Notes under the pieces: generated by a model
What the model saw: only the letters and a program-made list of their open reading frames with translations
Told to the model about the DNA's origin: nothing
Database searches by the model: none
Assembly (NCBI GenBank): GCA_030390025.1
Contig: JASTWF010000034.1
Location: 2,604,001-2,668,000 of the forward strand
From: Squalus acanthias
Taxonomy: Eukaryota
Direction of reading: 5' to 3'
DNA: 64,000 bases
Made by a program: the position numbers and the translations under genes
In this document: positions 34,638 to 64,000 of the stretch, in pieces
Layout of the letters: every line of letters begins with the position of its first letter
Position numbering within the stretch: the first letter of the stretch is position 1

Positions 34638-35539
34638 TCATGATTTAATGAACTTTACAATCAGAGTAAAGGGATATTTCCCCACAATCTTCAACTGCTC
34701 TCTGAACTTAGTCTGGGTCACGGCATAAATCCCAGTGTTTGTGCAGCAACTCAGCAGCTGCAGCATGAATCCCAGTTCTTGTACATAAAAAGGTAGACAT
34801 ACAAGCTCAGACCCCAAATACGACAAGCGGTATGATATAGAATACACCGTAAACACTGCCCATAACAGGATGAAATTGCCCGAGATAACAAGCAGTAAAA
34901 TGATGGATTTCCTGCGGCTCTCCATCTCTGGATCCCTGGTACTCTCCCCACTACTGGGACCTCGGAGTCTCCTGCGGGCTCTGCTGGACACTGAAATGTG
35001 TCTGATGGTGACAGTATTGAGCAGCAGAATCACCACAAATGGGACCCCCGGGGTGAGAATATAATGAAGGAACTCGATTGCTACCCAGAACAGTGAGTAC
35101 ATTACATCGATTGTTACATCACAAAACCAGGGGAGGTTCTGAAGCCAATAGGAATCTGTCATCATGAAATACCAGGTGATATTCTTCAAACCGCTCACCA
35201 CAGTCACTGTTCCCAGAATCACAGCCGCCGTTTTCTCGGTGCAATGTTTAGTTTTCAGCTTCTGGCAACAAATGGCGACAAATCGATCAAAGGTGAAAGT
35301 GACGGTGAACCAGACAGAACAGTCTGTGGCTGAATAAAGCAGGACGGCGTGGATATTACACACGGGGATGGACCTCATGAAATCAAACTGTTCCATATAA
35401 AGAATCGGAATGTGCCTCAATATCAGATCGAGGATAATGACCAGTAGATCCGCCGCTGCCATGGCCACCAGGTAGCGAGTGATACATTTGGAGAGACCGC
35501 ACTTTCCCCGAGACAGGATCACAATCGTCACTAAGTTCA
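34638..35539 (-). CDS. Exon 2 of GPR139/GPR142-like orphan class A GPCR, paralog B (end of TM1 to C-terminus)
   Basis: Acceptor TTTATTTCCTTTCCTCGCAG| then an uninterrupted frame NLVTIVILSRGKCGLSKC..AMAAADLL..FTFDRFVAIC..TPGVPF..SGNFILLW..SCCTNTGIY, with TGA at 34638-34640. Splices in phase to the exon at 47700-47880. Confidence 0.93.
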
Positions 35540-36469
35540 CTGCGAGGAAAGGAAATAAACAGCAAAATTATACATCAGGCTGGGAGCAAAAGCAGTAGTT
35601 CGATGGAATCCGGGGAGAAATCTACAACTCATTAGCGACATTCAATAATCTAATTTAATTCTATTACCTGTGGAGCAGAATACAGGGTTTATTGTAAGAA
35701 AAGTTGATAATACATTGTGGAATCAATAAATGAAATGGGGATAAATCCAACATGAAAGTAACAGATGTTTGATCAATGAGAGATTAAGTGATCGATCTAT
35801 ATTTAGCCCAGCAGACAAAAGCACCGCCCGAGGTACCAGGGACACAAAGGACCAGACCTTTTTTGGAAGCCTTTGTGTCCCAGGATCAGTCAGCATTTGG
35901 AGCGATGCATTTCGCTTCTGTGCCCCAGTGTTGGGGGAGCGGGAAATAACGCTTTTATTCCTGCTCCTGGTTAGAATATCCATTATAGTTACAACTGAAA
36001 ATTAATGCAACAGCAAAGTACAGAAACTGCAACCTTGGCAAGCAATAATTGTATTGAAATCTGGCTTAAGGGAAATTTTGTGAGAATGTAAATTATCCTT
36101 GGAGTCCTTTTCTCACCATCAGAACCAGGGCCACCAATGCAGTACTGGAGATGGTGGGAAAGAAGACACTGACTGGAACTGAATTATTAGCGGATGTTTC
36201 ACCCGCCCATAAAATACACAGTACAGAACAGAGTTTCTCTTCCTATAAGGAACTAAAACTGAGATCAAAAGACAAGAATGTGACGGAAAAAAGGAAGGAA
36301 TTATGTAAGAAAAATGATGGATGGCCCCAAACTTGTTCTCAGATTTATTCCATCCAAGACTATTAGGGTAAAAATATTAACAACAAATAAATGGTCCTGA
36401 ACGGTAGCATCTGAGAGATGAACACAGTGATGAAACGATGTTACTCGCTTACATGGTAATGCGCCCGCC

Positions 36470-46985: not shown

Positions 46986-47699
46986 GCAGGAGACAGAGAG
47001 AGAGTGAAGAGGGACAGAGAGAGAAAGTGAGAAAGAGAGAAATACAAATAGAGACAGAAAGACTGGGAGAGAATACAGAGGGAAAAAATAACTTTAAAAG
47101 GGGAATTGGATAAGTACTTGAAGGAGAAAATTTGCAGCACTATGCGAAAAGAGCAGGGTAATAGGAATAATGGGAGGGGTGAGGTCATGGTAGGATTTGA
47201 ACACAAGGAGTAGAATATTAAGATTAAGGCGTTGCCGGATTGGGAGCAAATGTCGGTCAGCCAGCACAGGGGTGATGGTTGAACAGGACATGATGCGGGT
47301 TAGGATAAGGGCAGCAGAATTTTAGATGAGCTCTAGTTTATGGAGGCATTGGAATAGTCGAGTCTGGATTTAACAAAAGCACGGATGAGGGTTTATGCAG
47401 CGGAAGGGCTGAGGCGGGGCGGAGACGGGCGATATTGCAGAGGTGCTGGTAGGCAGGACTGGTGAATCCGAGAATTACAGATCTATTTTCTGGATATAAC
47501 AGTGACACCCACAGCAGCAAAGAGGGGAGAGTAAATCACCAGAACATTAATACAGTTAGCAAAGGTTTGCAGAGTTAATAGATGGATACAATGACTTACC
47601 AGGAACAACAACAAAAAGAAGGAGGGGAGAGTAAAAGACAAGAACAGTAAAGCAGTTAAACGTAGTCTATAGGATTAATAGCCGGATAGAGCGACTTAC

Positions 47700-47880
47700 C
47701 AAGAACACCGACAGCAGCGAGGAGGGGATAGTAAAAGTGTTGAATAATCACAAGGGCCCAAAAGATCCGCGTGTCTAATGGTAGCCAATCATAATATGCT
47801 GAAAGTTTGTCAAACTCCCAGATGAAACTCCTGCCCATTGTTGTAACATTCCAATCTACTGTTCTCAGATTCCGATCCAT
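47700..47880 (-). CDS. Exon 1 of GPR139/GPR142-like orphan GPCR, paralog B
   Basis: ATG at 47880 (second ATG at 47838). Encodes MDRNLRTVDWNVTTMGRSFIWEFDKLSAYYDWLPLDTRIFWALVIIQHFYYPLLAAVGVL with phase-1 donor G|GTAAGT. Joined to 35539 it reads ...YYPLLAAVGVL-V-NLVTIVIL, and 181+902 nt gives 360 aa. Confidence 0.85.
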
Positions 47881-47999
47881 TGTAATATTCCAATCTACTG
47901 TTCTCAGATTCCGACTCCCTCTCTGTGGAGCAGCGCGCTGATCCTTGTTAGTGCCGGAGATGATGCTCTCACTGACACTATGGGATAACACATCATTGA

Positions 48000-48160
48000 A
48001 AGGAGACCCTTATTAATAGAAGAGGGAAACCCTGCACTGATATAATTAGGGTCCATGGAGACTGACATTAATTACAGTCACTAAACAAACATCTTCAGTT
48101 AACCCGTGGAGACTGACATTAATTACAGTCACTGAACAAACAGCTTCAGTTAACCCCTTT
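48000..48160 (-). promoter_or_regulatory. Putative proximal promoter of GPCR B
   Basis: TATTAATA at about 48011; duplicated 50-bp unit with TAATTA, TGACA and AAACAAACA motifs; conserved with 16120-16285. Confidence 0.5.
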
Positions 48161-49745: not shown

Positions 49746-49884
49746 GATAAAAGAAGGTATTGAGTCATTATTGCATGTGTAGAATCGAAGTTCTGCAGTT
49801 TTTGAGCCAGATTCTAATTATTACTTGTAATCTGAAAGGGGGAAATCAGAATTGACCCTGTCTCCATTTCCCACTCACCCTCAG

Positions 49885-51620
49885 AAACAATCCCAGCACG
49901 TGAGTGCAAAAGACAAAGCTGAAGCGTTTGCAACCATCTTCAGCCAGAAGTTCCCAGTGGATGATCCATATCGGCCTACTCCTGAGGTCCCCACCATCGC
50001 AGAAGCCACTATTCAGCCAATTCGATTCACTCCACGGGATAACAAGAAACGGCTAAGTGCACTGGATACAGAAAAGTTATGGGCCCCGACACATCTCGGC
50101 TATCGTGCTGAAGACTTGTGCTCCAGAAATAGCCGCGCCTCTAGCCAAGCTGTTACAGTACAGCTACAACAATGGCATCTATCCGACAATGTGTAAAACT
50201 GCCCAGGTATGTCCTGTCCACAAAAAACAGGACAAACCCAATCCGGCCAATTACCACCCCATCAGTCTACTCTCAATCACCAGCAAAGTGACGGAAGGTG
50301 TCATCGCCAGTGCTAGCGGCACTTACTCACAAATAACCTGATCACTGATGCCCAGTTTGGGGTCCGCCAAGGCCACTCGGATCTCGACCTCATTATAGCC
50401 TTGGTCCAAACATGGACAAAGGAGCTGAATTCCAGAAGTGAGGTGAGAGTGACTGACCTAGACATCAAGTCAGCATTTGACCGAGTCTGGCATCAAGAAG
50501 CTCTGGTAAAACTGAAGACAATGGAATGTGGGGATTACGCTCCACGGGCTGGAGTCATACCTAGCACAAAGAAAGATGGATGTGGTGATTGAAGGTTAAT
50601 CATCACAGCCTCAGGACATCGCTGCAGGAGCTCCTCAGGGCAGTGTCATAGGCCCAACCATCTTCAGCTGCTTCATCAAGGACCTTCCCTGCAACATAAG
50701 GTCAGAAATGGGGATGTTCGCTGATGACTGCACAGTGTTCAGCACCATTCAGAACTCCACAGATAATGAAGCAGTCCATGCCCGAATGCAACAAGACCTG
50801 GACAACATTCAAGCTTTGGCTGATTAGTGGCAGGTAACATTCGCGCCACAGAAGTGCCATGCAATGACTATCTCCAACAAGCGAAAACCTAACCACCGCC
50901 CCTTGACATTCAACGGCATTAACTTCGCCGAATCCCACACCATTAACATCCTGGGGATCAGCATTGACCAGAATCTTAACTGGACCACCCACATAAATAT
51001 TGTGGCAACAAGAGCAGGTCAGATGCTATGTACTCTGCGGCGAGTGTCTCATCTCCTCAGTCCCCAAAGCCTTTCCACCATTTACAAGGCAAAAGTAAGG
51101 AGTGTGATGGAATTCTCTCCACTTGCCTGGATGAGTGCAGGTCCAACAACACTCAAGAAGGTCGACATCATCCAGTTCAAAGCAGGCCGCTTGATTGGCA
51201 CCCCATCCACCACCTTAAACATTCACTTCCCCCAGCACTGGCATACCGTGGCTGCAGTGTGTACCATCTACAAGATGCCCTGCAGCAATTCACCAAGGCT
51301 TCTTCGGCAGCAAATCCCAAACCCGCGACCTCTTCCACCTAGAAGGGCAAGGACAGCAGGCCCATGGGAACACCACCACCTCCAATGTCCCCTCCAAGTC
51401 ACACACCATCCTGACTTAGAAGTATATCGCCAATCCTTCATCGTCGCTGGGTCAAAATCCTGGATCTCCCTACCTAACAGCACTGTGGGAGTACTTTCAT
51501 CACACGGACTGCAGCGGTGCAAGATGACGACTCACCACTACCATATCAAGTTAAATTAGGGATGGGCAATAAATGCTGGCTTTGCTAGCGATGCCCACAT
51601 CCCATGAAAGGAATTAAAAC
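49885..51620 (+). mobile_element. Non-LTR retrotransposon (CR1/L2-group) RT to 3' end, 5'-truncated and decayed
   Basis: NPANYHPISLLSI, DIKSAFDRVWH, PQGSVIGP, MFADD and IYKAKVRSVMEFSPLAW; AATAAA near the 3' end. Confidence 0.9.
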
Positions 51621-51789
51621 AATTACTCAGCACTAAGGATTGACACAGTCTTAGTTTTTATTTGTTCATTGATCCTGTTTTACGACGAAGTCCCGTGGCT
51701 GGATGGTGCCGATGAGCGCTGTCAGTCCCATTATAATCTGGAGTGGAGCCATTCTGTGTATCGACCTGCAAACAGAATTGGTGTAGTAT

Positions 51790-54750
51790 TTATTGTTTTA
51801 CACATTTTAACTGATTGATGTGGTACCACCTGGGCCTCTTTCTGTCCTTCGTCTCCGGGATCTGGATCAAATACATCGCGGGGCTGGCTTGGTCTGTGAT
51901 TGGGCAATTTCCCACCAATTAGGTTCAACGGCATGTTCCTTTCTTAGGTAGTTTAGGATCATGATCTGATCTCCTACCTGATACTCAAAAGGCCGAACCT
52001 TTTTGCCAAAGTACTACTTTAGTTGTTGTTGGCTTTTCCCGGTGTGCTGAGCCACGAACTCATTTGTTTCCTAAATGTGTTCTATCATTGACCCTACCCA
52101 TTTCTGGTTGGCCGCCTCCTGGAGAAGTGGGGTGATGGGTGGAGTGAGGAGGTGGGCAGGCCTTCTCATCAACCACCCCGTCATAGCCTGGTAAAGGGAA
52201 ATACCTGTGGTGCTATGTGGGGTTGCTCTCATGGCCATCAGGCACTTGGGTAACATGTTAACCCATTGTGTGGGGTGGTCCTTACAAAGCTTTTCCAGCG
52301 TGGTTTTAAGGGTTCGATTTCCACACTTCACTACCCCTGATGATTGTGGGTGGTCCACCACATGCAATTTGTGGGAGATTTTCATGAGTCTCTGGAGTTC
52401 TGAGAAGATTTTCCCGGTAAAGAGTGTCCCTTGGTTACTACCCACCTGGATTGGTATTCCCCAACTGCAGACCGCCTCACACAATAGCAGTTTTGCTGCT
52501 GTGAGAGCCGTGTTCATTCTACAGGGGAAAGCCTCAATCTATTTAATCAATTGCTCTATTAGGACCAGACAATATTTGTAGCCCGAGGGCGCCGTGACAA
52601 GGGGGCCTATAAAGTCTATCTGGACGTGTGTCCAGGGTCCGTCCGGCGGTGGCGGCCGTTGTAATAGCGCCCGATTGGAATAATTGCCCGGGTTATGCCG
52701 GAGGCACGAAATACACCTCTGTGCCCTGGATTCAAAGTCGCATTCGCAGCCCGGGTACTAGGACCTGGAGGGTCATTTCTCCAGATTGGTCTTCGCAGAA
52801 TAATGTACCCCCACGGAGTGGGCATGTATTAAATCGAACATTTTTTCTCCCATAGCCGGGGGGAGGCAGGTGACAGAGACATCCGGGATACAGTTGTACA
52901 TGAGGATGGGTAGCAGGGTGCCGGTCACATCCTGGTGAAGGGAGGTGATCGGGGTATACCGGGTTGGCGCCAGTAAGGGCTGGCCCTGCTGGTGCATTGC
53001 GATAACGACCGAGTATTGGTCGTACATGGCTTGCAAGCAGGCTGGATCGTTGACCGGGCTTACAGCTGATACCGGTAGCGGGTCAGGTTCCTGGTTGTTT
53101 TCCCCACAAACGGGCGTCTATGGCGGCCTGCTTTACTGACTTGTCTGCCATGGAGTTATTCCTAGCTAGTGGTTCCACGGAGCGGGAATGTGCCATAACC
53201 TTGCCCACATAGACAAGTGCCGTACGTCCCCGCAACACCATGTCCAGAACCCGAAAAAAGACGGCCTGTAGCAAAGGTTTACCGTTGGACCTGCAAAAGT
53301 TATTCCGGGCATACAGGGGTAAGGACAGCTGGGCTTTTTCGAATAGGCACTGTCGGACAAAATGTTCATACTTTGAGAACTGGTAATCTGAATGGCAGTG
53401 ACGAGGGCAAACACCTAAGTGTACTGTACCGAATGAGGGCTACATTTGTACTGAATGACCTCATTCGGCCGGATAATGGCGAACCCGGTGCACGGTTCTA
53501 ATGTCCAATGGCTCAGCCGGGCTGATGACATCAGCGTGTCTCCGGGCAGGAGCAACAGGTTCAGAGGTGAGTGTGGACTGTGCATTATCACCCGGTTGAA
53601 CCCCGTGATGTCGGTGAAGTGTTTGACAGCCCACAAAGTGGCCAACATGTGTCTCTCACAAACGGAGTAAGTCAGTTCGGCACCTCTTAAGATTCTGGAG
53701 GCCGAGGCAATAGGTAGTAGTCCGCCATGTTTATCTTGGAATAGGGCGGCGGTGGTTTTTCTCCTTGGCTCCGACCTCCATGTGGAAGAATTTGCTGGGA
53801 TTGGGTGAAACCAGACATGTGGCCAGAGCGACGGCTTGCTTCAACGGCGCCATTGCGTCCGTGTAGTTGTCTGTCCAGCCGTCTTTGACATGATCGTCAT
53901 CTCCTTGAAGTAGTTCGTAAAGTGGAGCAGCAGTATCTGCTAACCGTGGAATGAATGTCCGCTGATATCCCATCAGCCCAAGGAAGAAACACAGTGCGGT
54001 CTTTGAGGTTGGCAGGGATAGAAGATGGTTGTTTCGATCTTGTGCTGGTCCGGCCTGATGCCGGATGGTGCGATTCGGACTCCTAAAAAGGTAACACAGT
54101 CCTGCACCAATTGAGCCTTACGTGGGTGAACTTTTAGTATGGTCCTCCTTCAGTAGTCGCAATAGTTCTTGTAGGAGGGTTAGGTGCTGGGCGCAGTCTG
54201 TGGTAGCGAGCAGGATATCATCAACATATTGAAGCAAACAGGAAGGTTGTGAAAACTCTTCAGAACACTGGCCATACGCTAGTGTAAAATAGTGGGGACA
54301 TTATGGAACACTGCGGCAAGCACGTCCAGGTGTACCCCTGATCCTCGAAGATAAATGCGAATTTAAACTGATCTCCCTGTCTTACTGGGATACTCCGAAA
54401 GCCATTAGAAATATCCAGGGTTGAGAAGACAGTACTTCCACTGGGAAGCTGAAAGAGTAGGGTGGGTGTCTCCCGAACCACGCGGGGGTGACTGAATTGA
54501 GTTTGCGGTAATCGATTGTTAGTCGCCAACTGTCGTCTTGTTTCCTAACCGGCCAAACTGGAGAGTTTGTTGTAAATGTGCCTTGTCGAACAACACCTTG
54601 CTTTAACAATGATTCGATGGTGGCTGGAATATATGGTACGCTCTCGGCTGGATACGAGTATTGATTTACAGGAGCATGTACCGGGCGGTTGATCTCCTCG
54701 GGCTCAGTCATGCTTCCCCAATCATGTTTATGCGTTGTAAAATCAATGAC
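51790..54750 (-). pseudogene. pol: pol remnant: RT, tether, RNase H and integrase
   Basis: RT motifs at 54200-54700; tether ASRILRGAELTYSVCERHMLATLWAVKHF; RNase H SVQYT*VFAL..NILSDSAY..KVMAHSR..NSMADK; integrase QIDFIGP..WGIP..SNQGTLFT..HPQSSGVV; C-terminal WYHINQLK*. Confidence 0.9.
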
Positions 54751-54780
54751 CTCCTGCCCTAGTGTTTGGCCCAGGTCTAA

Positions 54781-55805
54781 TTAAATCGCATATATTGTGC
54801 CCCCCTCAGTATGTCCAGGTCCCTTTCTTGTTTTAAACCTGAGGAACATGTCGTCCCCTTCTAGTTCTGGGCGGGTGATTATAAAAACCCTCCCCCGCTG
54901 CCTGAGGTTGAGGGGGCTGGTGTCCATATTCCCCACCGCCAGGTTAGCCTTTAGTGCCCCCACTTCAAACGCGGTATGGGACCGGTGTGTGGTTGTGGTC
55001 GTGGTTTTTGCCTCGCTACTATTGGTGGTCGAGGAGGCTGCATCACCATTCGGGTCTTGGCCAGCCTGGCGCTTGGGCTCAGGTGCGGTCTTCGCTCGGG
55101 TGACCTCACGCACTGGTATCGTCTCGCCCGCATTGCCTTCCTTGTATGGGAGGGGCGGAGCAGAGGGAACAGAGGGAGTAGGTTTCCCAACGATGTTGTC
55201 CCAGCAAAGGCCGGGATCTCTTGGTTTGATTTTGGAGACAGTAGCCACCACTGCCCGTTGTTGGTCGATTTGAGCCTGAAGCTGTTGGACTTTCTCTCAG
55301 CACGGGGTGTGTTCTCCTTCGGGGAAGGCAGTGTTTTGGCGCCGGTTTAATTCCCTTAACGCTCCCCTTGCATCCTGTAACATCTCAAACAACGTGGTGT
55401 TTTCTGCCTGGAGTTCAATATTCTCTTTGAGTATTTGACTTAGTTTCTTTTGTGTATACTGCATTTTGTCATGAATCTTTTGCTCCCAGCGCAACTGGTT
55501 GCGGAGGGCAGAAAGGTTCTCTCACCATTCACTTCTTCCTTTCCGCATCAGGCTTACTAATCTTTGAACTCTTCAGTCTCCCTATTTAACTGGGCAGCAC
55601 AAAAAGGTGCCCCGTAAGCTAACCTGTCTCGGCCTCTCTTTATTTTACGTTTGTGTTTCTGAACATCCTCAGCGAGTTTATCAATGATGTAATCATAGAC
55701 CCCGTTACCGTCTTCGAAGATTTTTCGGAGGTCCGCTGCTGCAGGCGTGCCGACTTTTTCTGTCAGGCTGTCTACTATCTGTTCTCGATGGTATGCCAAC
55801 GCCAT
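54781..55805 (-). pseudogene. gag: gag remnant with a coiled-coil N-terminal half and PSAP/PPxY late-domain motif; capsid C-terminus, NC and protease apparently deleted
   Basis: ATG at 55805 after the PBS; heptad-rich LSQILKENIELQAENTTLFEMLQ; PSAPPLPY; frameshifts; joins directly to the pre-RT motif TTHKHDWG. Confidence 0.7.
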
Positions 55806-55928
55806 TGTACCTCTGCTTTTACCTTTACCCCACTCAATCCCTTTGCTTTCTTTCAGGGTGTTTTAGTCTCAAACGACGATCACGCGAGGTCGACCAAGTC
55901 CCTCCTGTCCCCACAACCGGAACCTTAC

Positions 55929-55946
55929 ATCCCACTTCTGACACCA
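55929..55946 (-). promoter_or_regulatory. Primer-binding site complementary to the tRNA-Leu 3' end
   Basis: Minus strand TGGTGTCAGAAGTGGGAT; the plus strand ATCCCACTTCTGACACCA is the 3' end of vertebrate tRNA-Leu(CAA) including CCA. Confidence 0.9.
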
Positions 55947-55947
55947 C

Positions 55948-56734
55948 TGTAAGATTTTGATCACAGGTCACACGCAGATTACCCAGACGGTCTTAGAATT
56001 TGTAAGGCTTTATATCAGAGAGCTACAGTTTAAGCCTAATCAGATACTACATGTGATTGAAATAGATATAGTAGACAACACCCCGTGACAGATGAGGGTG
56101 ATCTACGAAACGACCAGACAAAGGGACGGTGAGGCAGTACGGTGGTCCCGGATTGGGTGGATTCTTGCAGTCTTTGGCAGCGGTCACTTCCGTTGGGTCA
56201 TCCCTCGAGCTGTTGGAGGTGTTAGGCCGTCAGCCAGCATTGATCCATCTCAGAGGCTAAACTTGACCAAGATGTTAGGCCGTAGTATGCATGCATCCAA
56301 CTCGGAGAAGGCTTCGCCCTTAACTGCTTGTTTCCCTCTCTCGGTCGCCCGTTTTTATACCTTACTTCGATGGGCTGGTGTATACCTGGTGTCAATCATT
56401 TTTACCCATCCCAATTACAAGGTAAGGGTACCTCTGACAGGCCCCCTCCCATCTTGCTGAGGTCAGCAATTTCCCTATCTCTGTTCTAAATGCCCTGTTG
56501 TGTTTCTAAGGACATCTTGCTTATCCTACCGGCTCCATGTTATCCTCCGTCTCAGTTTAGGTATGTCTGCTGGGAGGCCTTTCATTGTGATGATCTGAGC
56601 CCTCTGTGCTTAGCTGATGTGACTGGAATTATCTCTAGGTCATCAGCCAGCCCACATCTGCTGAATTGACAAACCTGCTTTTTGCAGAATCGTTATTCCT
56701 TTTATAATTTGCAATTTCTTTAAGATTTCTTACA
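55948..56734 (-). repeat. 5' LTR (about 787 bp)
   Basis: Inverted termini TGTAAGA (55948) and TCTTACA (56734); TATAAAA on minus at about 56355; abuts the PBS. Confidence 0.82.
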
Positions 56735-57634
56735 CTGTCCAATAATCATATTATCTTGGTCCAAGTTATTAACACATTTTATTTGTTTATTTTACTCACT
56801 GAACCTCTTGATGGACCCTTTATTTCCCAATATAACGCTATGTCAAGCCCAAGTCAATTATATCATTTCAAAATTATCCCCAATCGAGCAAGCTGTGCTT
56901 TTGGACTGACAGGACTTCTTAATGCTCATTTTTATTTCGCCAACACTTTCTTTGTTGACACACAGCATTGGACAGGAACCACATAGACTGCCTTCCTCTC
57001 GTTTGTTTCAATGAAAATCAGCTTATCCCCTTAAACTCCAGGTAAATTTTCCACTCATGAGCGCATGAAACAGCCACTGATATCAATTTGTCTTACCATT
57101 TAAAACTTCAGAACCAAATGATGCCCATGCTTGATGGTATTAATTTAGAGACAGAAGTTTTTGGAATTATTTTGGGGTAACTTCCATATCTTCCCCCACT
57201 CGAGCACTCTGACTGGGATGATAACAGATGATCTTGACTTGGTTCAAGACAAGGCTTTGTAAAGCAAAGCCTTAAGTCCAAAACATCACCACGCTGTGAC
57301 ATTTGATGTCTGGCAATGTCTGCAGAGAAGGTCTTACATTTTTAAGTCTACTGGATCTCTTCCTCAACCAACAGTGTGTTTATAAGATCATGGTCCCCTG
57401 TATAAAAGAAAATAAAATCATAGAATACATTGTGGCTCCGCTTGAGAGCCCAAGGTGTTAATTTGTGAGTTCATGATTTCCTTCTGTCACCATGGGGAAA
57501 TATCCGCTCAAAATAAAATAAACTTCAAATTTAATAATACCCATTATATAAATGTACTTTCTGTAATACAAAAGTTGTTGCACGATGTATGGAAAACAGT
57601 TGTCAGTGGAAACTGTTAACTTCATTATATGTTT

Positions 57635-58545
57635 AAGATGCAAAAATTGTCCGTGTGTTTGATAGTGAGGAAGAAAACTGTAGACAGCAGGAATGTATCA
57701 ATGGACTGGTCAGGTGGGCAGCAAAGTGGCAAATGGATTCAATCCTGAGAACCTTAAGGTAATGCATTTGGGGAGGGCTAACAAGGCAAGGGATTACACA
57801 ATAAATGTTAGGACAATGAGAAGAGTAGAGGAACAAAGGGACCTTGGAGGGCAAGTCCACACATCCCTGAAAGTAGAGGATATGTAGATAAGGTGGTTCA
57901 GAAATATTGGATACTTTCCTTTATTAGCCGAGGCATAGAATATAAAAGCAGGGAGTTTATGCTTGAACTGTATAAAACACTAGTTAGGCCACAGCTAGAG
58001 TACTGCGTACAGTTCTTGTCACCACATTACAGGAAAGATGTGATTGTACTGGAGATGATACGGAGGAGATTTACGAGGATGTTGCCAGCACTGGAGACAT
58101 TTAGCGAGGAGGAAACATTTGATAGGCTGGGGTAGCTATCTTTGGAACAGAAGAGTTTGAGGGGTGCTTTAATTGAGGTTTATAAATTATGAGGGACCTA
58201 GATAGAATGGATAGGAAGGACGTAATTCCCCCTAGCAAATAGGTCAATAACCAGGGGGCATGTATTTAAAGCAATTGGTAGAAGGAATAGAGGGGATTTG
58301 AGGAGGACTGTTTTCACCAGGGAGTAGTGGAGGTATGTAACTCCCTGCCTAAAAGGTTGGTAGAGATAGAAACCCTCACTGCATTTCGAAAGTACTTGGA
58401 TATGCATTTGAAATGCCGTAACCTACAGGGCTATGGACCAAGAGCTGCAAAGTAGGATTAGGCTGGAGAGCTCTTTCACAGCCGGCAGGATGACGATGGA
58501 CAGAATGCTCCTTCTGTGCCATAAATTTCTATGATTCTATGATGT
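57635..58545 (+). mobile_element. CR1 3' half
   Basis: VMHLGRANK and LYKTLVRPQLEYCVQFLSPHYRKD; (TTCTATGA)n tail. Confidence 0.9.
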
Positions 58546-59299: not shown

Positions 59300-59650
59300 T
59301 TCAAATTTCTTCACGGGCCATGTCTGCAGGGACATGGCTAGAGGGCGTTTGAACTCCAGGGTCATACTGGGCACAGGTGAGGCAGTCATTAATAATATAA
59401 TTCATGGGCTGATCAATACTGGGCCACCGCACCTGCTGCAGCTGCCTTTGGACCAGGCTTTCACCCTTCTGGTGCCCAGCAGGTGTGTGGCCCTCCGGAC
59501 ATCTCGTTAGAAGTGACTGTGGGATCATACCATTCACCCGGATCAAAACACATGTCATCCTGTACTGTAAATTGTCCTTTCTTTGAAGGCATCTTTGGGC
59601 CACGAGTCTTCAGCTTGGATGGCCGCCTGAATTGATTTAATTCAAGAGCG
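59300..59650 (-). pseudogene. Isolated LTR-element integrase zinc-binding (HHCC) fragment
   Basis: EGHTPAGHQKGESLVQRQLQQVRWPSIDQPMNYIINDCLTCAQ fits the H-x4-H...WP...CxxC pattern. Confidence 0.7.
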
Positions 59651-59764
59651 ATAACCCTGCAACCTTGAATGAGCGAAAGGGGATGATTCACTTCAAACTT
59701 TATTCATCTGGCTTGCAAGGCTCAATGCGGTTCCCACACTTCCACGGCAAACTAATCCCAGCCG

Positions 59765-60185
59765 TAATAACAACAGAAAAGGCAAGAAAAACTCAGCAGG
59801 CCAGGCAGCATCCGCGGAGAGAGAAACAGAGTTAACGTTACAGGTCGAAGACCTTTCGTCAGAAATTGAAAAAAGCAGGAAATTAAATAGATATAAAGCA
59901 AGTATAATGCTGGGAAAAGGGGGAGAGAATGAAAGAACATAAGGCAAGGTCAGTGGTGGGAATGAAAACAGGAGAGATTAAGAGACATTAAGAGATAATC
60001 AAGGGCAAGAGGAGGTGGTAATGTCACAGGTTGAGTGTGAACTGCGCTGGCAGAATGAAGGACAGCTGCCAGCTTCTGGGAGGGAAAAAGGCCAAACAAA
60101 AGGGTGGATGAAAAAATAACATAAAAAAAATATATATGTGATAGGGGCCAAGGTTACGATCTGAATTTGTTGAACTCGATGTTGA
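59765..60185 (-). mobile_element. Penelope-like element 3' end and terminal repeat
   Basis: The minus strand encodes an ORF end NIEFNKFRS*, resembling PLE ORF C-termini, followed by the same terminal repeat as 12300-12610. Confidence 0.75.
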
Positions 60186-60699: not shown

Positions 60700-62535
60700 A
60701 GCATAGAACATAGAACAGTACAGCACAGTACAGGCCCTTCGGCCCTCGATGTTGTGCCGAGCATTGTCCGAGACCAAGATCAAGCTATCACACTCCCTAT
60801 CACTCTGGTGTGCTCCATGTGCTTATCCAATAACCGCTTGAAAGTTCCTAAAGTGTCCGACTCCACTATCACAGCAGGCAGTCCATTCCACACCCCAACC
60901 ACTCTCTGAGTAAAGAATCTACCTCGGACATCCATTCTATATCTCCCCCCATGCACCTTATAGTTATGCCCCCTTGTAACAGCTGCCTCTACCCGAGGAA
61001 ATAGTCTCTGAACATCCGCTCTATCTATCCCCCTCATCATCTTATAAACCTCTATTAAGTCGCCTCTCATCCTCCTCCTCTCTAAAGAGAAAAGCCCCAA
61101 CTCCCTCAATCTTTCCTCATAAGACCTCCCCCCCAAACCAGGCAGCATCCTGGTAAATCTCTTGCACTCTTTCCAATGCTAGCACGTCCTTCCTATAGTG
61201 AGGTGACCAGAACTGCACACAATATTCCAAATGTGGTCTCACCAAGGTCCTGTACAGTTGCAGCATAACCTCACGGTTCTTAAACTCAAACCCTCTGTTA
61301 ATAAACGCCAACACACCATAGGCCTTCTTTACTGCTCTATCCACTTGAGTGGCAACCTTCAGAGATCTGTGGATATGAACCCCCAGATCCCTCTGCTCCT
61401 CCACGTTCCTCAGAACCCTGCCGTTGACCCTGTAATCCTTATTCAAATTTGCCCTACCAAAATGAATCACCTCGAACTTATCAGGGTTAAATTCCATCTG
61501 CCATTTTTCGGCCCAGCTCTGCATCCTATCAATGTCTCTTTGCAGCCTACAACTGCCCTCCACCTCATCCACTACTCCACCAATCTTGGTGTCATCAGCA
61601 AATTTACTGATCCACCCTTCAGTCCCCTCCTCCAAGTCATTGATAAAAATCACAAACAGCAGAGGACCCAGCACCGACCCCTGTGGCACACCGCTGGTAA
61701 CTGGTCTCCAGTCCGAAAATGTTCCATCCACCACCACCCTCTGCCTTCTATGAGATAGCCAGTTACTTATCCAATCGGCCAAATTTCCCTCTATCCCACA
61801 ACTCCTTACTTTCTTCATGAGCCGACCATGGGGAAACTTATCAAACGCCTTACTAAAATCCATGTATACGACATCACCTGCTCTACCTTCATCTACACAC
61901 TTAGTTACCTCCTCAAAGAATTCAATCAAATTTGTTAGGCAAGACTTACCCTTCACGAATCCGTGTTGACTATCCCTGATTAAGTTGCCCCTTTCCAAAT
62001 GGTCATAAATCCTATCCCTCAGGACCTTTTCCATTATCTTACCAACCACCGAAGTAAGACTAACCGGCCTATAATTACCAGGGTCATTCCTATTTCCTTT
62101 CTTGAAGAGAGGAACAACATTCGCCACTCTCCAGTCCTCTGGCACCATTCCCGTGGACAGTGAGGACCCAAATATCAAAGCCAGAGGCTCTGCAATCTCC
62201 TCCCTTGCCTCCCAAAGAATCCTAGGATATATCCCATCTGGCCCAGGGGACTTATCGACCCTCACGTTCTTCAAAATTGCTAAAACATCTTCCCTCAGAA
62301 CATCTACCACCTCCAGCCTATCCACCTTTATCACACTCTCATCCTCAAGAACATGGCCCCTCTCCTCGGTGAACACTGACGAAAAGTATTCATTCATCAC
62401 CTCTCCTATCTCTTCTGACTCCATGCACAAGTTCCCACGACTGTCCTTGACCGGCCCTACCCTCACCCTGGTCATTCTTTTATTTCTCACATAAGAGTAA
62501 AAAGCCTTGGGGTTTTTCTTGATCCGACCCGCATC
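60700..62535 (-). mobile_element. Young 5'-truncated CR1 LINE with a nearly intact RT
   Basis: A 457-aa open frame (61117-62490) holds the RT motifs KSPGPDG, YRPVSLTS, DFSKAFD, SGVPQGSVLGP and FADD. One frameshift near 61160; (TTCTATG)n tail. Confidence 0.96.
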
Positions 62536-62869
62536 TTCAACTTAAAATGTAAATCATAAAAGTTTAAAATATTGATCTCTGTAAATGATTATGAGCCCGT
62601 AAAGTGCCTAAACTTTACCTGATATTCCCAGGTCGTGAGCCCAAGAATTAGTCCCACAGTTTAAATCAGTTCAAATCCAAGTAGCACTCAAAGTATCTCA
62701 AACATAATCCAAATGTCTACACATACAAAGAGAAAACAATTAACACACTTAAAACAGCACATGCTTCACAAACTGAAACCGGAAACAAACATCACACAGA
62801 CACAATTTAATAGAGATTTACAAACAAAAGAAATGAAGTAGAAACATTCTCAGCATTCTTAATGTGAAG

Positions 62870-63735
62870 CCCTCGGAGTTTCTCTGCATCCTCCTCACAA
62901 CACACACGTTTGTCGTCTGCAAAGTTGGAGATATTACATCTAGTTCCCTCGTCTAGATCATTAATATAGAATGTGAATAACTGGGGTCCTAGCACCGATT
63001 GCTGCGGTACCCCACTAGTCACTGCCTGCCACTCGGAAAAAGACCCGTTTATTCAAACTCTTTGCTTCCTGTCTGCCAAACAGTTCTCTATCCAAGTCGG
63101 TACCTTACACCCAGTCCCATGTGATTTAACTTTGCACGCCAATCTCTTATGTGGGAGCTTATCGAAAGCCTTCTGAACGTCCAAATACACCACATCCACT
63201 GGTTCTCCCTGATCTATTCTACCAGTTACATCCTCAAAAAATTCCAGTAGATTAGTCAAGCTTGATTTACCTTTTGTAAATCTATGTTGACTTTGTCCGA
63301 TCCTGTCACTGTTTTCCAAGTGCTCTGCTTTTACATTTTTTATAATGGACTCTAGCATTGTCCCCACTACCGATGTCAGGCTTACTGGTCTATGATACCC
63401 CGTTTTCTCTCTCCCACCTTTTTTAAATCGTGGGGTTACATTAGCTACCCTCCAATCCATGGGAACTGTTCCAGAGTGTACACAATTTTGAAAGATGCCC
63501 AGCAATGCATCTACTATTTCTAGGGCCACTTCCCTAAGTACCCTAGGATGTAGATTATCAGGCCCTGCGGATTTATCGGGCTTTAATCCCGTCAATTTCC
63601 CTAACACCATTTCCCTACAAATACTGATTTCATTCAGTTCTTCCCTCTCATTAGACCCTATGTTACCTGACATCTCTGGGAGGTTATGTGTGCCCTCCTT
63701 TGTAAAGACAAAACCAAAGTATGTATTAATAGAAA
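62870..63735 (-). mobile_element. CR1 RT fragment
   Basis: KSAGPDNLHPRVLREV, LTNLLEFFEDVT, SGVPQQSVLGP and SNFADD. Confidence 0.9.
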
Positions 63736-64000
63736 CATAGAAACATAGAAGATAGGCCCAGGAGTAGGCCATTCGGCCCCTCGAGCCTGCTCCGCCATTT
63801 AATGAGATCATGGCTGATCATCCAAATTCAGTACCCTGTTTTCACCCCATATCCCTTGATCACTTTAGCCTTGATAAATATATCTAACTCCTTCTTGAAT
63901 ATATTTAATGAATTGGCCTCAACTGCCTTCTGTGGTAGAGCATTCCACAGTTTCACCACTCTCTGGGTGAAGAAATTCCTCCTCATCTCAGTCCAAAATG
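63735..64000 (-). mobile_element. CR1 3' end, continuing beyond the window
   Basis: 3' UTR GGAGCAGGCTCGAGGGGCCGAATGGCCTACTCCTG and a (TTTCTATG)n tail. Confidence 0.88.

What the first reader, a model, noticed from the sequence alone, without database searches (positions are those of the whole stretch)
51660..56734. Retrovirus-like element with dual RNase H architecture (Lokiretrovirus or class III-like)
Seen: after a YVDD RT there is a Ty3/Gypsy-type RNase H fold lacking its catalytic Asp residues (FHMEVGA, HSPHSP). A second, retroviral-style RNase H follows (HSVQYT*VFAL, NILSDSAY, KVMAHSR, NSMADK), then integrase. The gag carries PSAPPLPY (overlapping PSAP and PPxY budding motifs), and the PBS is tRNA-Leu. 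Known: tether plus RNase H distinguishes retroviruses and their sister Lokiretroviruses from ordinary Gypsy elements. Inference: this is an endogenous Loki-like or deep-branching retroviral lineage in a cartilaginous fish.
Basis: partly seen in the sequence, partly recalled or inferred. Interest (0 to 1): 0.7.

Follow-up and report, generated by a model that had tools for sequence, protein, structure and literature searches.

The report
Deep-branching shark retrovirus, F-type envelope
This is a dead, partly deleted copy of an endogenous retrovirus family in a likely shark genome. Its double RNase H is the normal retroviral layout and its polymerase groups with ordinary retroviruses rather than lokiretroviruses, but its envelope is predicted to fold like the fusion protein of measles- and RSV-type viruses, so this envelope type is likely older and more widespread among retroviruses than assumed.

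Summary
Observation confirmed. The minus-strand element has a 787-bp LTR, a tRNA-Leu(CAG) PBS, PSAPPLPY in gag, a YVDD RT, a catalytically dead tether, a second RNase H and an integrase. The copy is dead.

It is not a lokiretrovirus. RT trees with verified Loki references place the family inside canonical Retroviridae (99/99). AU tests reject grouping it with Loki (p=0.0025) or Gypsy (p=0.008). Its nearest relatives are Xenopus, coelacanth and frog ERVs of the deep class III / 'SnRV-like' (Huo) grade. A clade with snakehead retrovirus itself is unresolved in RT and not supported in RNase H.

Tether plus RNase H is standard for retroviruses, so the headline feature is ordinary. The more interesting part is env. 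In a sister copy it is predicted to have the paramyxo/pneumovirus F fold, which was treated as a Loki hallmark and is now also known for foamy Env. This scan reported SnRV-like ERVs with F-type Env earlier, on other DNA of this genome.

The parts
55948..56734 (-). 5' LTR, 787 bp, TGTAAG...CTTACA ends
   Evidence: (40 matches from 40 scored of 1658 candidates in the genome); no second copy in the window
55929..55946 (-). Primer binding site, 18 nt, tRNA-Leu(CAG)
   Evidence: at the same place after the LTR in L027, L038, L040, and with 3 mismatches or fewer in L036
54784..55805 (-). gag 5' part (broken by stops and frameshifts): N-terminal region, coiled-coil-like stretch, late-domain motif, start of capsid
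   Evidence: the matching piece of sister copy L027 has only weak coiled-coil Pfam hits
55144..55167 (-). PSAP overlapping PPxY (PSAPPLPY), likely late (budding) domain
   Evidence: PSAP..PPY also in sister subfamilies L061 and L103, PPxY only in L027, PSAP only in L034 and L036
54739..54741 (-). Junction of a deletion of about 1.06-1.08 kb (most of capsid, CCHC knuckle, protease)
   Evidence: L025, L038, L034, L036 hold the extra DNA; knuckle and protease seen in L009, L027, L036, L066
53860..54730 (-). Reverse transcriptase, YVDD, frameshifted
   Evidence: Pfam RVT_1 E=3.4e-8 on one fragment; L027 RT E=1.8e-29
53496..53830 (-). Tether (degenerate Gypsy-type RNase H; D/E/D replaced by G/H/P)
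53495..53497 (-). Junction of a 192-bp deletion removing the tether end and the first catalytic strand of RNase H
   Evidence: 16 other genomic places hold 190-193 bp more here; only the window copy and its 99% duplicate on C3848 lack them
53120..53495 (-). Second (retroviral) RNase H, broken in this copy
51790..52830 (-). Integrase (HHCC region and catalytic core, broken)
   Evidence: hmm score 150 for the window piece; Pfam rve and Integrase_H2C2 in L029 and L031
51669..51752 (-). First 28 codons of env (signal-peptide-like); the rest of env and the 3' LTR are absent
   Evidence: 13/26 identical to the env start of copy L031, E=1e-8; DNA alignment
49880..51620 (+). LINE abutting the truncated 3' end; the same junction is shared by duplicated copies
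   Evidence: Pfam RVT_1 E=5e-9

Best explanation
The element is a dead, internally deleted and 3'-truncated provirus of a multi-copy endogenous retrovirus family whose RT lies inside canonical Retroviridae, in a deep branch shared with Xenopus, coelacanth and frog ERVs (the loose class III / 'SnRV-like' / Huo grade), and whose envelope is predicted to be an F-type class I fusogen. The ancestral virus likely worked as an ordinary retrovirus: priming on tRNA-Leu(CAG), RT joined through an inactive tether to an active second RNase H, integration by a DDE integrase, and budding through PSAP/PPxY late domains. It would have entered cells by a furin-cleaved Env with a long post-cleavage subunit that refolds like paramyxovirus/pneumovirus F. 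Shown: the parts, the breaks, RT placement outside Loki and Gypsy, and env directly after integrase. Inferred: each function and the F-like fold (model and fold search only). This particular copy was multiplied passively by segmental duplication, since its closest copies share both flanks.
For: RT careful trees: family + Xenopus P0002 100/98*, inside the non-Loki retroviruses 99/99* and 100/99* with foamy-like rows added; the quick mixture-model tree gives the same placement (95*). AU rejects family+Loki (p=0.0025) and family+Gypsy (p=0.008). The Loki rows carry RT motifs found in the published Loki sequences, and P0202 is nearly identical to Loki-Lca. P0151 matches the published SnRV RT row. 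RT identity: 59% Xenopus, 53% coelacanth, 51% Rhinophrynus, 42% SnRV, 36% Loki. The four RT motifs read like SnRV and unlike Loki or fish foamy-like rows. Env: start present in the window; furin site, hydrophobic peptide, heptads, Cys-rich region and TM in sister copies; weak PF00523 hits in 2 of 3 env pieces scanned (E=0.026-0.035). The AlphaFold model (pLDDT 61.5) has only paramyxo/pneumovirus F chains among the listed Foldseek PDB rows (best E=2.6e-7). VIA-align's top four rows are RSV, hMPV and NDV F (Z 9.3-9.4, rmsd 4.8-20.5, 264-320 aligned). Env relatives occur in sharks, a skate, frogs, coelacanth and owls. Shared flanks.
Against: Membership of an SnRV clade is not shown. SnRV sits in a polytomy in the RT trees; a clade with it is not rejected (AU p=0.47) but not recovered. 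In RNase H, SnRV groups with class I to the exclusion of this family (99/95*). Family+foamy is not rejected at 0.05 (p=0.09; the foamy branch is long). The trees lack class II, mammalian ERV-L, Odin and fish FLERV references. The Env model is of middling confidence (pTM 0.44; 161 of 537 residues under pLDDT 50), and Z of about 9 is only a little above the helical-bundle background (Z 8-9). The folded env (L062) belongs to a sister subfamily (integrase 69% identical to the window's), not to the window copy. Pfam gave no F hit for env pieces of the closest copies L030 and L031, and a word-based search with the L031 env found no relatives.
Confidence: 0.8

Rival explanations
1. A lokiretrovirus, the first in a cartilaginous fish.
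For: F-type Env. S-QYAE RNase H motif shared with Loki. Gypsy-like tether. Coiled-coil-like Gag N-terminus, as described for the Loki relative Bik-1. Relatives are annotated NYNRIN-like. In the first quick RNase H tree the family was on Loki's side (97*, unrooted).
Against: RT excludes it (AU p=0.0025). The Loki motif PFGY..SPAEF is absent. RNase H lies outside the Loki+foamy group (99/90*). QYAE also occurs in the foamy-like RNase H, so it is likely ancestral. A Loki Pol query found nothing above 38% identity in this genome (a floor). The Loki paper found 0 in 6 chondrichthyan genomes.
Confidence: 0.04
2. A recombinant: a canonical retroviral pol that took an F-type env from a Loki, foamy or Mononegavirales donor, so the env says nothing about the ancestral state.
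For: Domain swaps are common in retroviruses (PMC7947760). Earlier scan note e1-9943543 proposes env swapping for a class I pol in this genome (not tested here).
Against: The env family has relatives in sharks, skate, frogs, coelacanth and owls, a spread similar to that of the pol relatives (frogs, coelacanth). Predicted WDSV and WEHV-1 Envs also match the model (E=3.6e-7 and 2.6e-9). I did not check whether the env relatives sit beside related pol genes.
Confidence: 0.3
3. A foamy-like (clade Tu) endogenous retrovirus.
For: Best PDB hits for RT (133 bits) and integrase (110 bits) are foamy virus proteins. It has YVDD, PSAP and an F-like Env as in foamy viruses (PMC11468914). AU p=0.09.
Against: PDB holds no SnRV-grade structure, so its ranking is weak evidence. 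True foamy-like elements in this genome (A9 protease) fall elsewhere in RT and RNase H trees. Gag has a CCHC knuckle, which foamy Gag lacks (recalled). RNase H best matches MLV/XMRV in PDB, with no foamy hit at E<=1. Env begins with a short signal-peptide-like stretch.
Confidence: 0.06
4. A Gypsy/Metaviridae retrotransposon with a second, independently gained RNase H (Tat- or Odin-like).
For: The tether scores as Gypsy-type RT_RNaseH. A Leu PBS is also common in vertebrate Gypsy elements (recalled).
Against: AU p=0.008; the LPQGF RT motif is retroviral; env is present.
Confidence: 0.02

Closest known systems
SnRV-like / clade Huo / class III-grade ERVs (Xu et al. 2018, PMC6001957; Naville and Volff 2016, PMC4977317), including CmiERV lineage I of elephant shark (Han 2015, PMC4422223)
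   Same: Canonical retroviral RT with SnRV-like motifs (LTIDYR, LDISNGFW, LPQGFH, LLQYVDDILL), tether plus RNase H, gag-pol-env order, aquatic vertebrate hosts
   Different: No supported clade with SnRV itself (RT polytomy; RNase H puts SnRV with class I). The PBS is Leu (SnRV uses Arg, recalled). An F-type Env for this group was not found in my paper searches. I could not compare with CmiERV-I directly.
Unnamed Xenopus tropicalis ERV Pol P0001/P0002 (UniRef A0A803K6K2 for P0001), and Latimeria and Rhinophrynus 'NYNRIN-like' Pols
   Same: 59%, 53% and 51% RT identity; Xenopus P0002 is sister to the family in the RT, RNase H and integrase trees
   Different: Other hosts; their env linkage was not tested
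Lokiretroviruses (Wang and Han 2021, PMC7947760)
   Same: Tether plus RNase H, F-related Env, QYAE RNase H motif, coiled-coil-like Gag N-terminus
   Different: RT outside Loki (AU p=0.0025); RNase H outside the Loki+foamy group; about 300 residues before the furin site against about 100 in the Loki-Xtr Env; Loki not reported in Chondrichthyes
Foamy viruses (Env structure PMC11468914)
   Same: YVDD, PSAP, Env core like paramyxovirus F (8rm0 Z=7.5, rmsd 6.9, 257 aligned)
   Different: CCHC knuckle in Gag, Leu PBS, RT and RNase H outside the foamy-like rows
ERV4 of crocodilians and turtles (Chong et al. 2014, PMC4299795)
   Same: Neither class I nor class II, env-bearing
   Different: ERV4 lacks a Gag zinc finger, which this family has; the paper leaves SnRV- and Ovex1-related ERVs, some with zinc fingers, unclassified

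Membership tests
Retroviridae (canonical, non-Loki) | RT inside the canonical retrovirus clade | tested here: met
   99/99*, 100/99*; references lack class II and mammalian ERV-L
Retroviridae (canonical, non-Loki) | Tether plus second RNase H | tested here: met
Retroviridae (canonical, non-Loki) | LTR, PBS, gag-pol-env order | tested here: met
   3' LTRs seen in sister copies L033, L035, L028
Lokiretrovirus | RT within the Loki clade, sister to canonical retroviruses | tested here: not met
   AU p=0.0025; references checked against the paper's supplement
Lokiretrovirus | Env related to Mononegavirales F (PF00523) | tested here: met
   weak PF00523 hits; fold search; prediction only
Lokiretrovirus | RNase H in group I (Loki + foamy) | tested here: not met
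   Loki+foamy 99/90* excludes the family; 147 columns only
Lokiretrovirus | Integrase closest to CGIN1/NYNRIN | tested here: inconclusive
   Relatives are annotated NYNRIN-like; the integrase tree leaves the family unresolved outside Loki; CGIN1 itself was not in the tree
SnRV-like clade / clade Huo | RT monophyly with snakehead retrovirus | tested here: inconclusive
   Polytomy; the held-together tree is only 0.7 lnL worse, AU p=0.47
SnRV-like clade / clade Huo | RNase H grouping with SnRV | tested here: not met
   SnRV groups with class I and four other fish-type rows, 99/95*, excluding the family; RNase H swaps are known, so this weighs less than RT
Spumaretrovirinae / foamy-like | RT monophyly with foamy-like elements | tested here: inconclusive
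   Not recovered; AU p=0.09; only two host-genome foamy-like rows
Spumaretrovirinae / foamy-like | No CCHC zinc knuckle in Gag (recalled) | tested here: not met
   Knuckle seen in L009, L027, L066 (Pfam hits below cut-off)
ERV4 | RT clade with crocodilian ERV4 | not testable with these tools
   No ERV4 reference was fetched
ERV4 | No Gag zinc finger (PMC4299795, Table 1) | tested here: not met
   CCHC knuckle in sister copies
Metaviridae (Gypsy) | RT within Gypsy; single active RNase H | tested here: not met
   AU p=0.008; D/E/D lost in the first RNase H
Odin retrotransposons | RT sister to Loki; no env | tested here: not met
   env present; RT outside Loki's side; no Odin row in the trees

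The most novel reading that the evidence does not exclude
The shark, Xenopus, frog and coelacanth elements form an unnamed deep lineage of canonical retroviruses, separate from SnRV, that kept the ancestral kit: F-type Env, a QYAE-type RNase H outside both the Loki/foamy and the SnRV/class I groups, a coiled-coil Gag head and a Gypsy-like tether. [quoted passage not shown]
Probability: 0.3. Interest if true: 0.65.

Novelty: new variant of a known kind. Interest (0 to 1): 0.4.

Why it matters
The flagged trait, a dual RNase H, is ordinary for retroviruses, and SnRV-related ERVs in cartilaginous fish are published. What matters is that an F-type envelope sits on a canonical, non-foamy retroviral polymerase. 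Wang and Han (PMC9040795) listed F-related Env as a Loki feature not found in canonical retroviruses; foamy Env has since been shown to be F-like (PMC11468914). A third deep lineage with such an Env makes the open question of the ancestral retroviral envelope testable by linked pol-env phylogeny in sharks, amphibians and coelacanth. It also shows that F-like env plus tether cannot be used alone to call an element Loki.

Tried and rejected
Searches that found nothing useful:
- IMG/VR scan with the family RT: no relative.
- Word-based protein search with the L031 env: none at E<=0.001 among 5266 candidates.
- PDB sequence search with the env: only two coiled-coil chance hits.
- ESM Atlas on an env piece: weak leads only (HA, Fusion_gly, Baculo_F at 0.87-0.90, low recognition). 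On the gag piece: retrotransposon-gag/CCHC clusters.
- Six RT motifs of the closest relatives: absent from the held (cut) text of the Loki supplement.
- PBS and RT motifs: absent from the held CmiERV supplement text, so kinship with CmiERV lineage I is untested.
- Earlier scan findings by sequence and by words: none.

Analyses left incomplete or not used:
- The careful mixture-model RT tree did not finish; its quick form is cited.
- LTR dating was not attempted: paired LTRs are 77-78% identical with about 100 gaps (L034/L033, L036/L035) and 90% over 312 bp (L027/L028), too gapped for a clock.
- PDB hit ranking (foamy best for RT and IN, MLV best for RNase H) was not used for placement, because PDB has no SnRV-grade or Loki protein.

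Rejected reading: the first quick RNase H tree put the family on Loki's side. After foamy-like rows were added, Loki joined foamy and the family stood apart, so RNase H kinship with Loki was dropped.
Full report
OBSERVATION. The element lies on the minus strand of window 51669-56734. The LTR is 55948-56734 (787 bp) with 6-bp inverted ends, followed after one base by an 18-nt PBS. A pattern of that tRNA 3' end occurs 238 times in the genome, with 0 for the reversed control, and ARAGORN calls tRNA-Leu(CAG) in 2 of 4 loci fetched. The window holds no second LTR. The tether passes Pfam RT_RNaseH (E=1.8e-13); the window's second RNase H gives only sub-cut-off hits on two fragments.

WHY THE WINDOW COPY SCORES POORLY. 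A DNA search of the own genome gave 72 matches from 40 scored of 256 candidates. At ~53495, 16 other genomic places carry 190-193 bp more (192 in most). Only the window copy and its 99% duplicate on C3848 lack them; two places have a different gap, three cover one side only and one had no match. The missing stretch holds the first catalytic strand of RNase H. In L034, L061 and L064 one open frame carries RT_RNaseH and RNase_H above their cut-offs. Against six Gypsy-type rows, the three acidic catalytic positions of the first RNase H read G, H and P. A second deletion of about 1.06-1.08 kb at ~54740 removes most of capsid, the CCHC knuckle and the protease; these parts are seen in L009, L027, L036 and L066 (with weak Pfam scores). 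At the 3' end the copy keeps 28 codons of env (13/26 identical to the L031 env start, E=1e-8) and then abuts a LINE. Of 10 copies fetched with long flanks, five share the 3' flank and junction, and three of these also share the 5' flank. The window copy is therefore one of a set of segmental duplicates of one integration. Copies on large chromosomes are 72-80% identical, and some have both LTRs.

PLACEMENT. The closest proteins are Xenopus tropicalis (59% over RT), Latimeria (53%) and Rhinophrynus (51%) Pols with the same tether + RNase H layout. A profile search added teleost and lamprey proteins and P0151. P0151's RT matches the SnRV row in the supplements of PMC9040795 and PMC7947760. The teleost and lamprey rows carry RT motifs found in the published Loki sequences, and P0202 is nearly identical to Loki-Lca. 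Gypsy and class I labels were set by motif, not from a curated list. Trees used natural open stretches of sister copies: 66 of 97 candidate RT rows, then 53, 37 and 40 rows after dropping near-duplicates and gappy rows. All put the family sister to Xenopus P0002 (100/98* in the careful trees) inside the non-Loki retroviruses (99/99*, 100/99*), with Loki monophyletic apart. AU tests reject family+P0002+Loki (p=0.0025) and +Gypsy (p=0.008). They do not reject +foamy-like (p=0.09) or a wide clade with SnRV (p=0.47). SnRV sits in a basal polytomy. In RNase H (36 rows, 147 columns, unrooted) Loki+foamy form one group (99/90*, as published), SnRV+class I another (99/95*), and the family with its amphibian and coelacanth relatives lies in neither. 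An earlier quick tree without foamy rows had put the family on Loki's side. The integrase tree leaves it unresolved, sister to P0002. A Loki Pol query found nothing above 38% identity in this genome (stricter first look, so a floor). The Loki paper reports 0 of 6 chondrichthyan genomes. The trees lack Odin, fish FLERVs, ERV-L, ERV4 and class II rows.

ENVELOPE. Sister copies carry an env right after integrase; a protein search gave 122 matches from 118 scored of 7308 candidates, at 38-100% identity. The layout is a signal-peptide-like start, about 300 residues, a basic furin site followed by a hydrophobic Gly-rich peptide, heptads, a long Cys-rich region, a second heptad, a TM and a short tail. 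One sister subfamily (L062; integrase 69% identical to the window's) has an uninterrupted frame, which was folded with a 33-row alignment: mean pLDDT 61.5, pTM 0.44. Every listed Foldseek PDB row is a paramyxo- or pneumovirus F (best E=2.6e-7, TM-score about 0.3). VIA-align over 48,161 chains ranks RSV, hMPV and NDV F first (Z 9.3-9.4, 264-320 aligned residues); helical-bundle chance rows reach Z 9.0 over 79 residues, and foamy Env 8rm0 scores Z 7.5 over 257. BFVD hits include lispivirus and baculovirus F-type proteins and the Envs of WEHV-1, WDSV and feline foamy virus. A profile search found 45 relatives. Of 29 looked up, the 24 named ones come from sharks, a skate, frogs, coelacanth and an owl. 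The F-like fold is a prediction; it was not shown for the window copy, which lacks nearly all of env.

MECHANISM. Shown: LTR, Leu PBS, gag late-domain motif (PSAP..PPY also in L061 and L103), RT, dead tether, second RNase H, integrase, env start. Inferred from established retrovirology: tRNA-Leu-primed reverse transcription, RNA removal by the second RNase H, DDE integration, ESCRT-dependent budding, and entry by a furin-cleaved class I fusogen of F type. The window copy can do none of this.

LITERATURE SEEN. PMC7947760: main text parts 1-3 of 4 and supplement passages (held text cut when stored). PMC9040795: passages and passages of supplement file 2. PMC4422223: part 1 of 2 and a supplement search. 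PMC6001957: parts 1-2 of 5. PMC10699275: part 2 of 4. Passages only: PMC4977317, PMC12193657, 10.1101/2024.03.17.585361 (48), 10.1101/2024.03.25.586437 (23), 10.1101/2023.10.26.564294 (63), PMC11468914, PMC12583693, PMC11521997, PMC4299795. Together they show that tether + RNase H is general to retroviruses, Loki and Odin; that SnRV-related ERVs are known from elephant shark, coelacanth and amphibians; and that foamy Env is F-like. Three searches for an F-like Env in SnRV-, class III- or epsilon-type retroviruses returned no paper or one errantivirus paper. The library misses most subscription papers, and the consensus data of Xu et al. 2018, which may hold this family, were not examined.

EARLIER SCAN NOTES. 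One search listed notes on other DNA of this genome describing SnRV-like ERVs with F-type Env (e1-7805280, e1-9837919, e1-7789907), an F-like env on a class I pol (e1-9943543) and foamy-like families (e1-8040416). My reading was recorded before that call. The foamy note gave the lead to fetch foamy-like rows from the own genome. Sequence look-ups did not link those notes to this family.

VERDICT. A real, dead copy of a deep-branching canonical retrovirus family, not Loki. The dual RNase H is ordinary. The likely F-type env on a canonical pol is the point of interest; the scan has seen it before in this genome. Interest 0.4; new variant of a known kind.

Noticed in passing
window 1 to about 9000: 31-bp tandem satellite, at least 268 overlapping matches in the repeat families
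   Followed up: no
window 34641-35567 (-), fragment near 47656-48009 (-): Rhodopsin-family GPCR (7tm_1 E=2.4e-20); similar genes lie beside other copies (L022, L033, L035), so the region looks like a duplicated GPCR cluster that carried the provirus along
   Followed up: partly
window 59304-59950 (-): Fragment of another LTR element: integrase zinc-binding hit (E=2.4e-4) next to a gag-like stretch
   Followed up: partly
window 57630-58540 and 60780-63820: LINE RT remnants (61120-62541: RVT_1 E=4e-35)
   Followed up: no
L033:5500-6005 and L035:5790-6294: Sister copies on different contigs share an internal env deletion that leaves only the env start and end before the 3' LTR, which suggests spread after env loss or duplication
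   Followed up: partly
L009 3086-3781 (-), L066 2-1546 (+): In two copies the CCHC knuckle and the protease motif lie in one frame with no stop between them, which hints at a gag-pol fusion frame; not settled
   Followed up: no
L089-L098: A separate, young family of the same grade with near-identical RT sequences and long open pol frames on many chromosomes; probably the family of earlier scan notes
   Followed up: partly
L075-L086, L099-L101: True foamy-like elements with the A9 protease (49 matches of 127 scored); used as tree references
   Followed up: partly
Predicted Envs of walleye dermal sarcoma virus and walleye epidermal hyperplasia virus 1 match the F-like model (E=3.6e-7, 2.6e-9); search found no paper with all five terms on this
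   Followed up: partly
G000 C13 about 49.38-49.40 Mb and C575: Tandem array of tRNA-Leu-like 3' ends with a period of about 1154 bp
   Followed up: no
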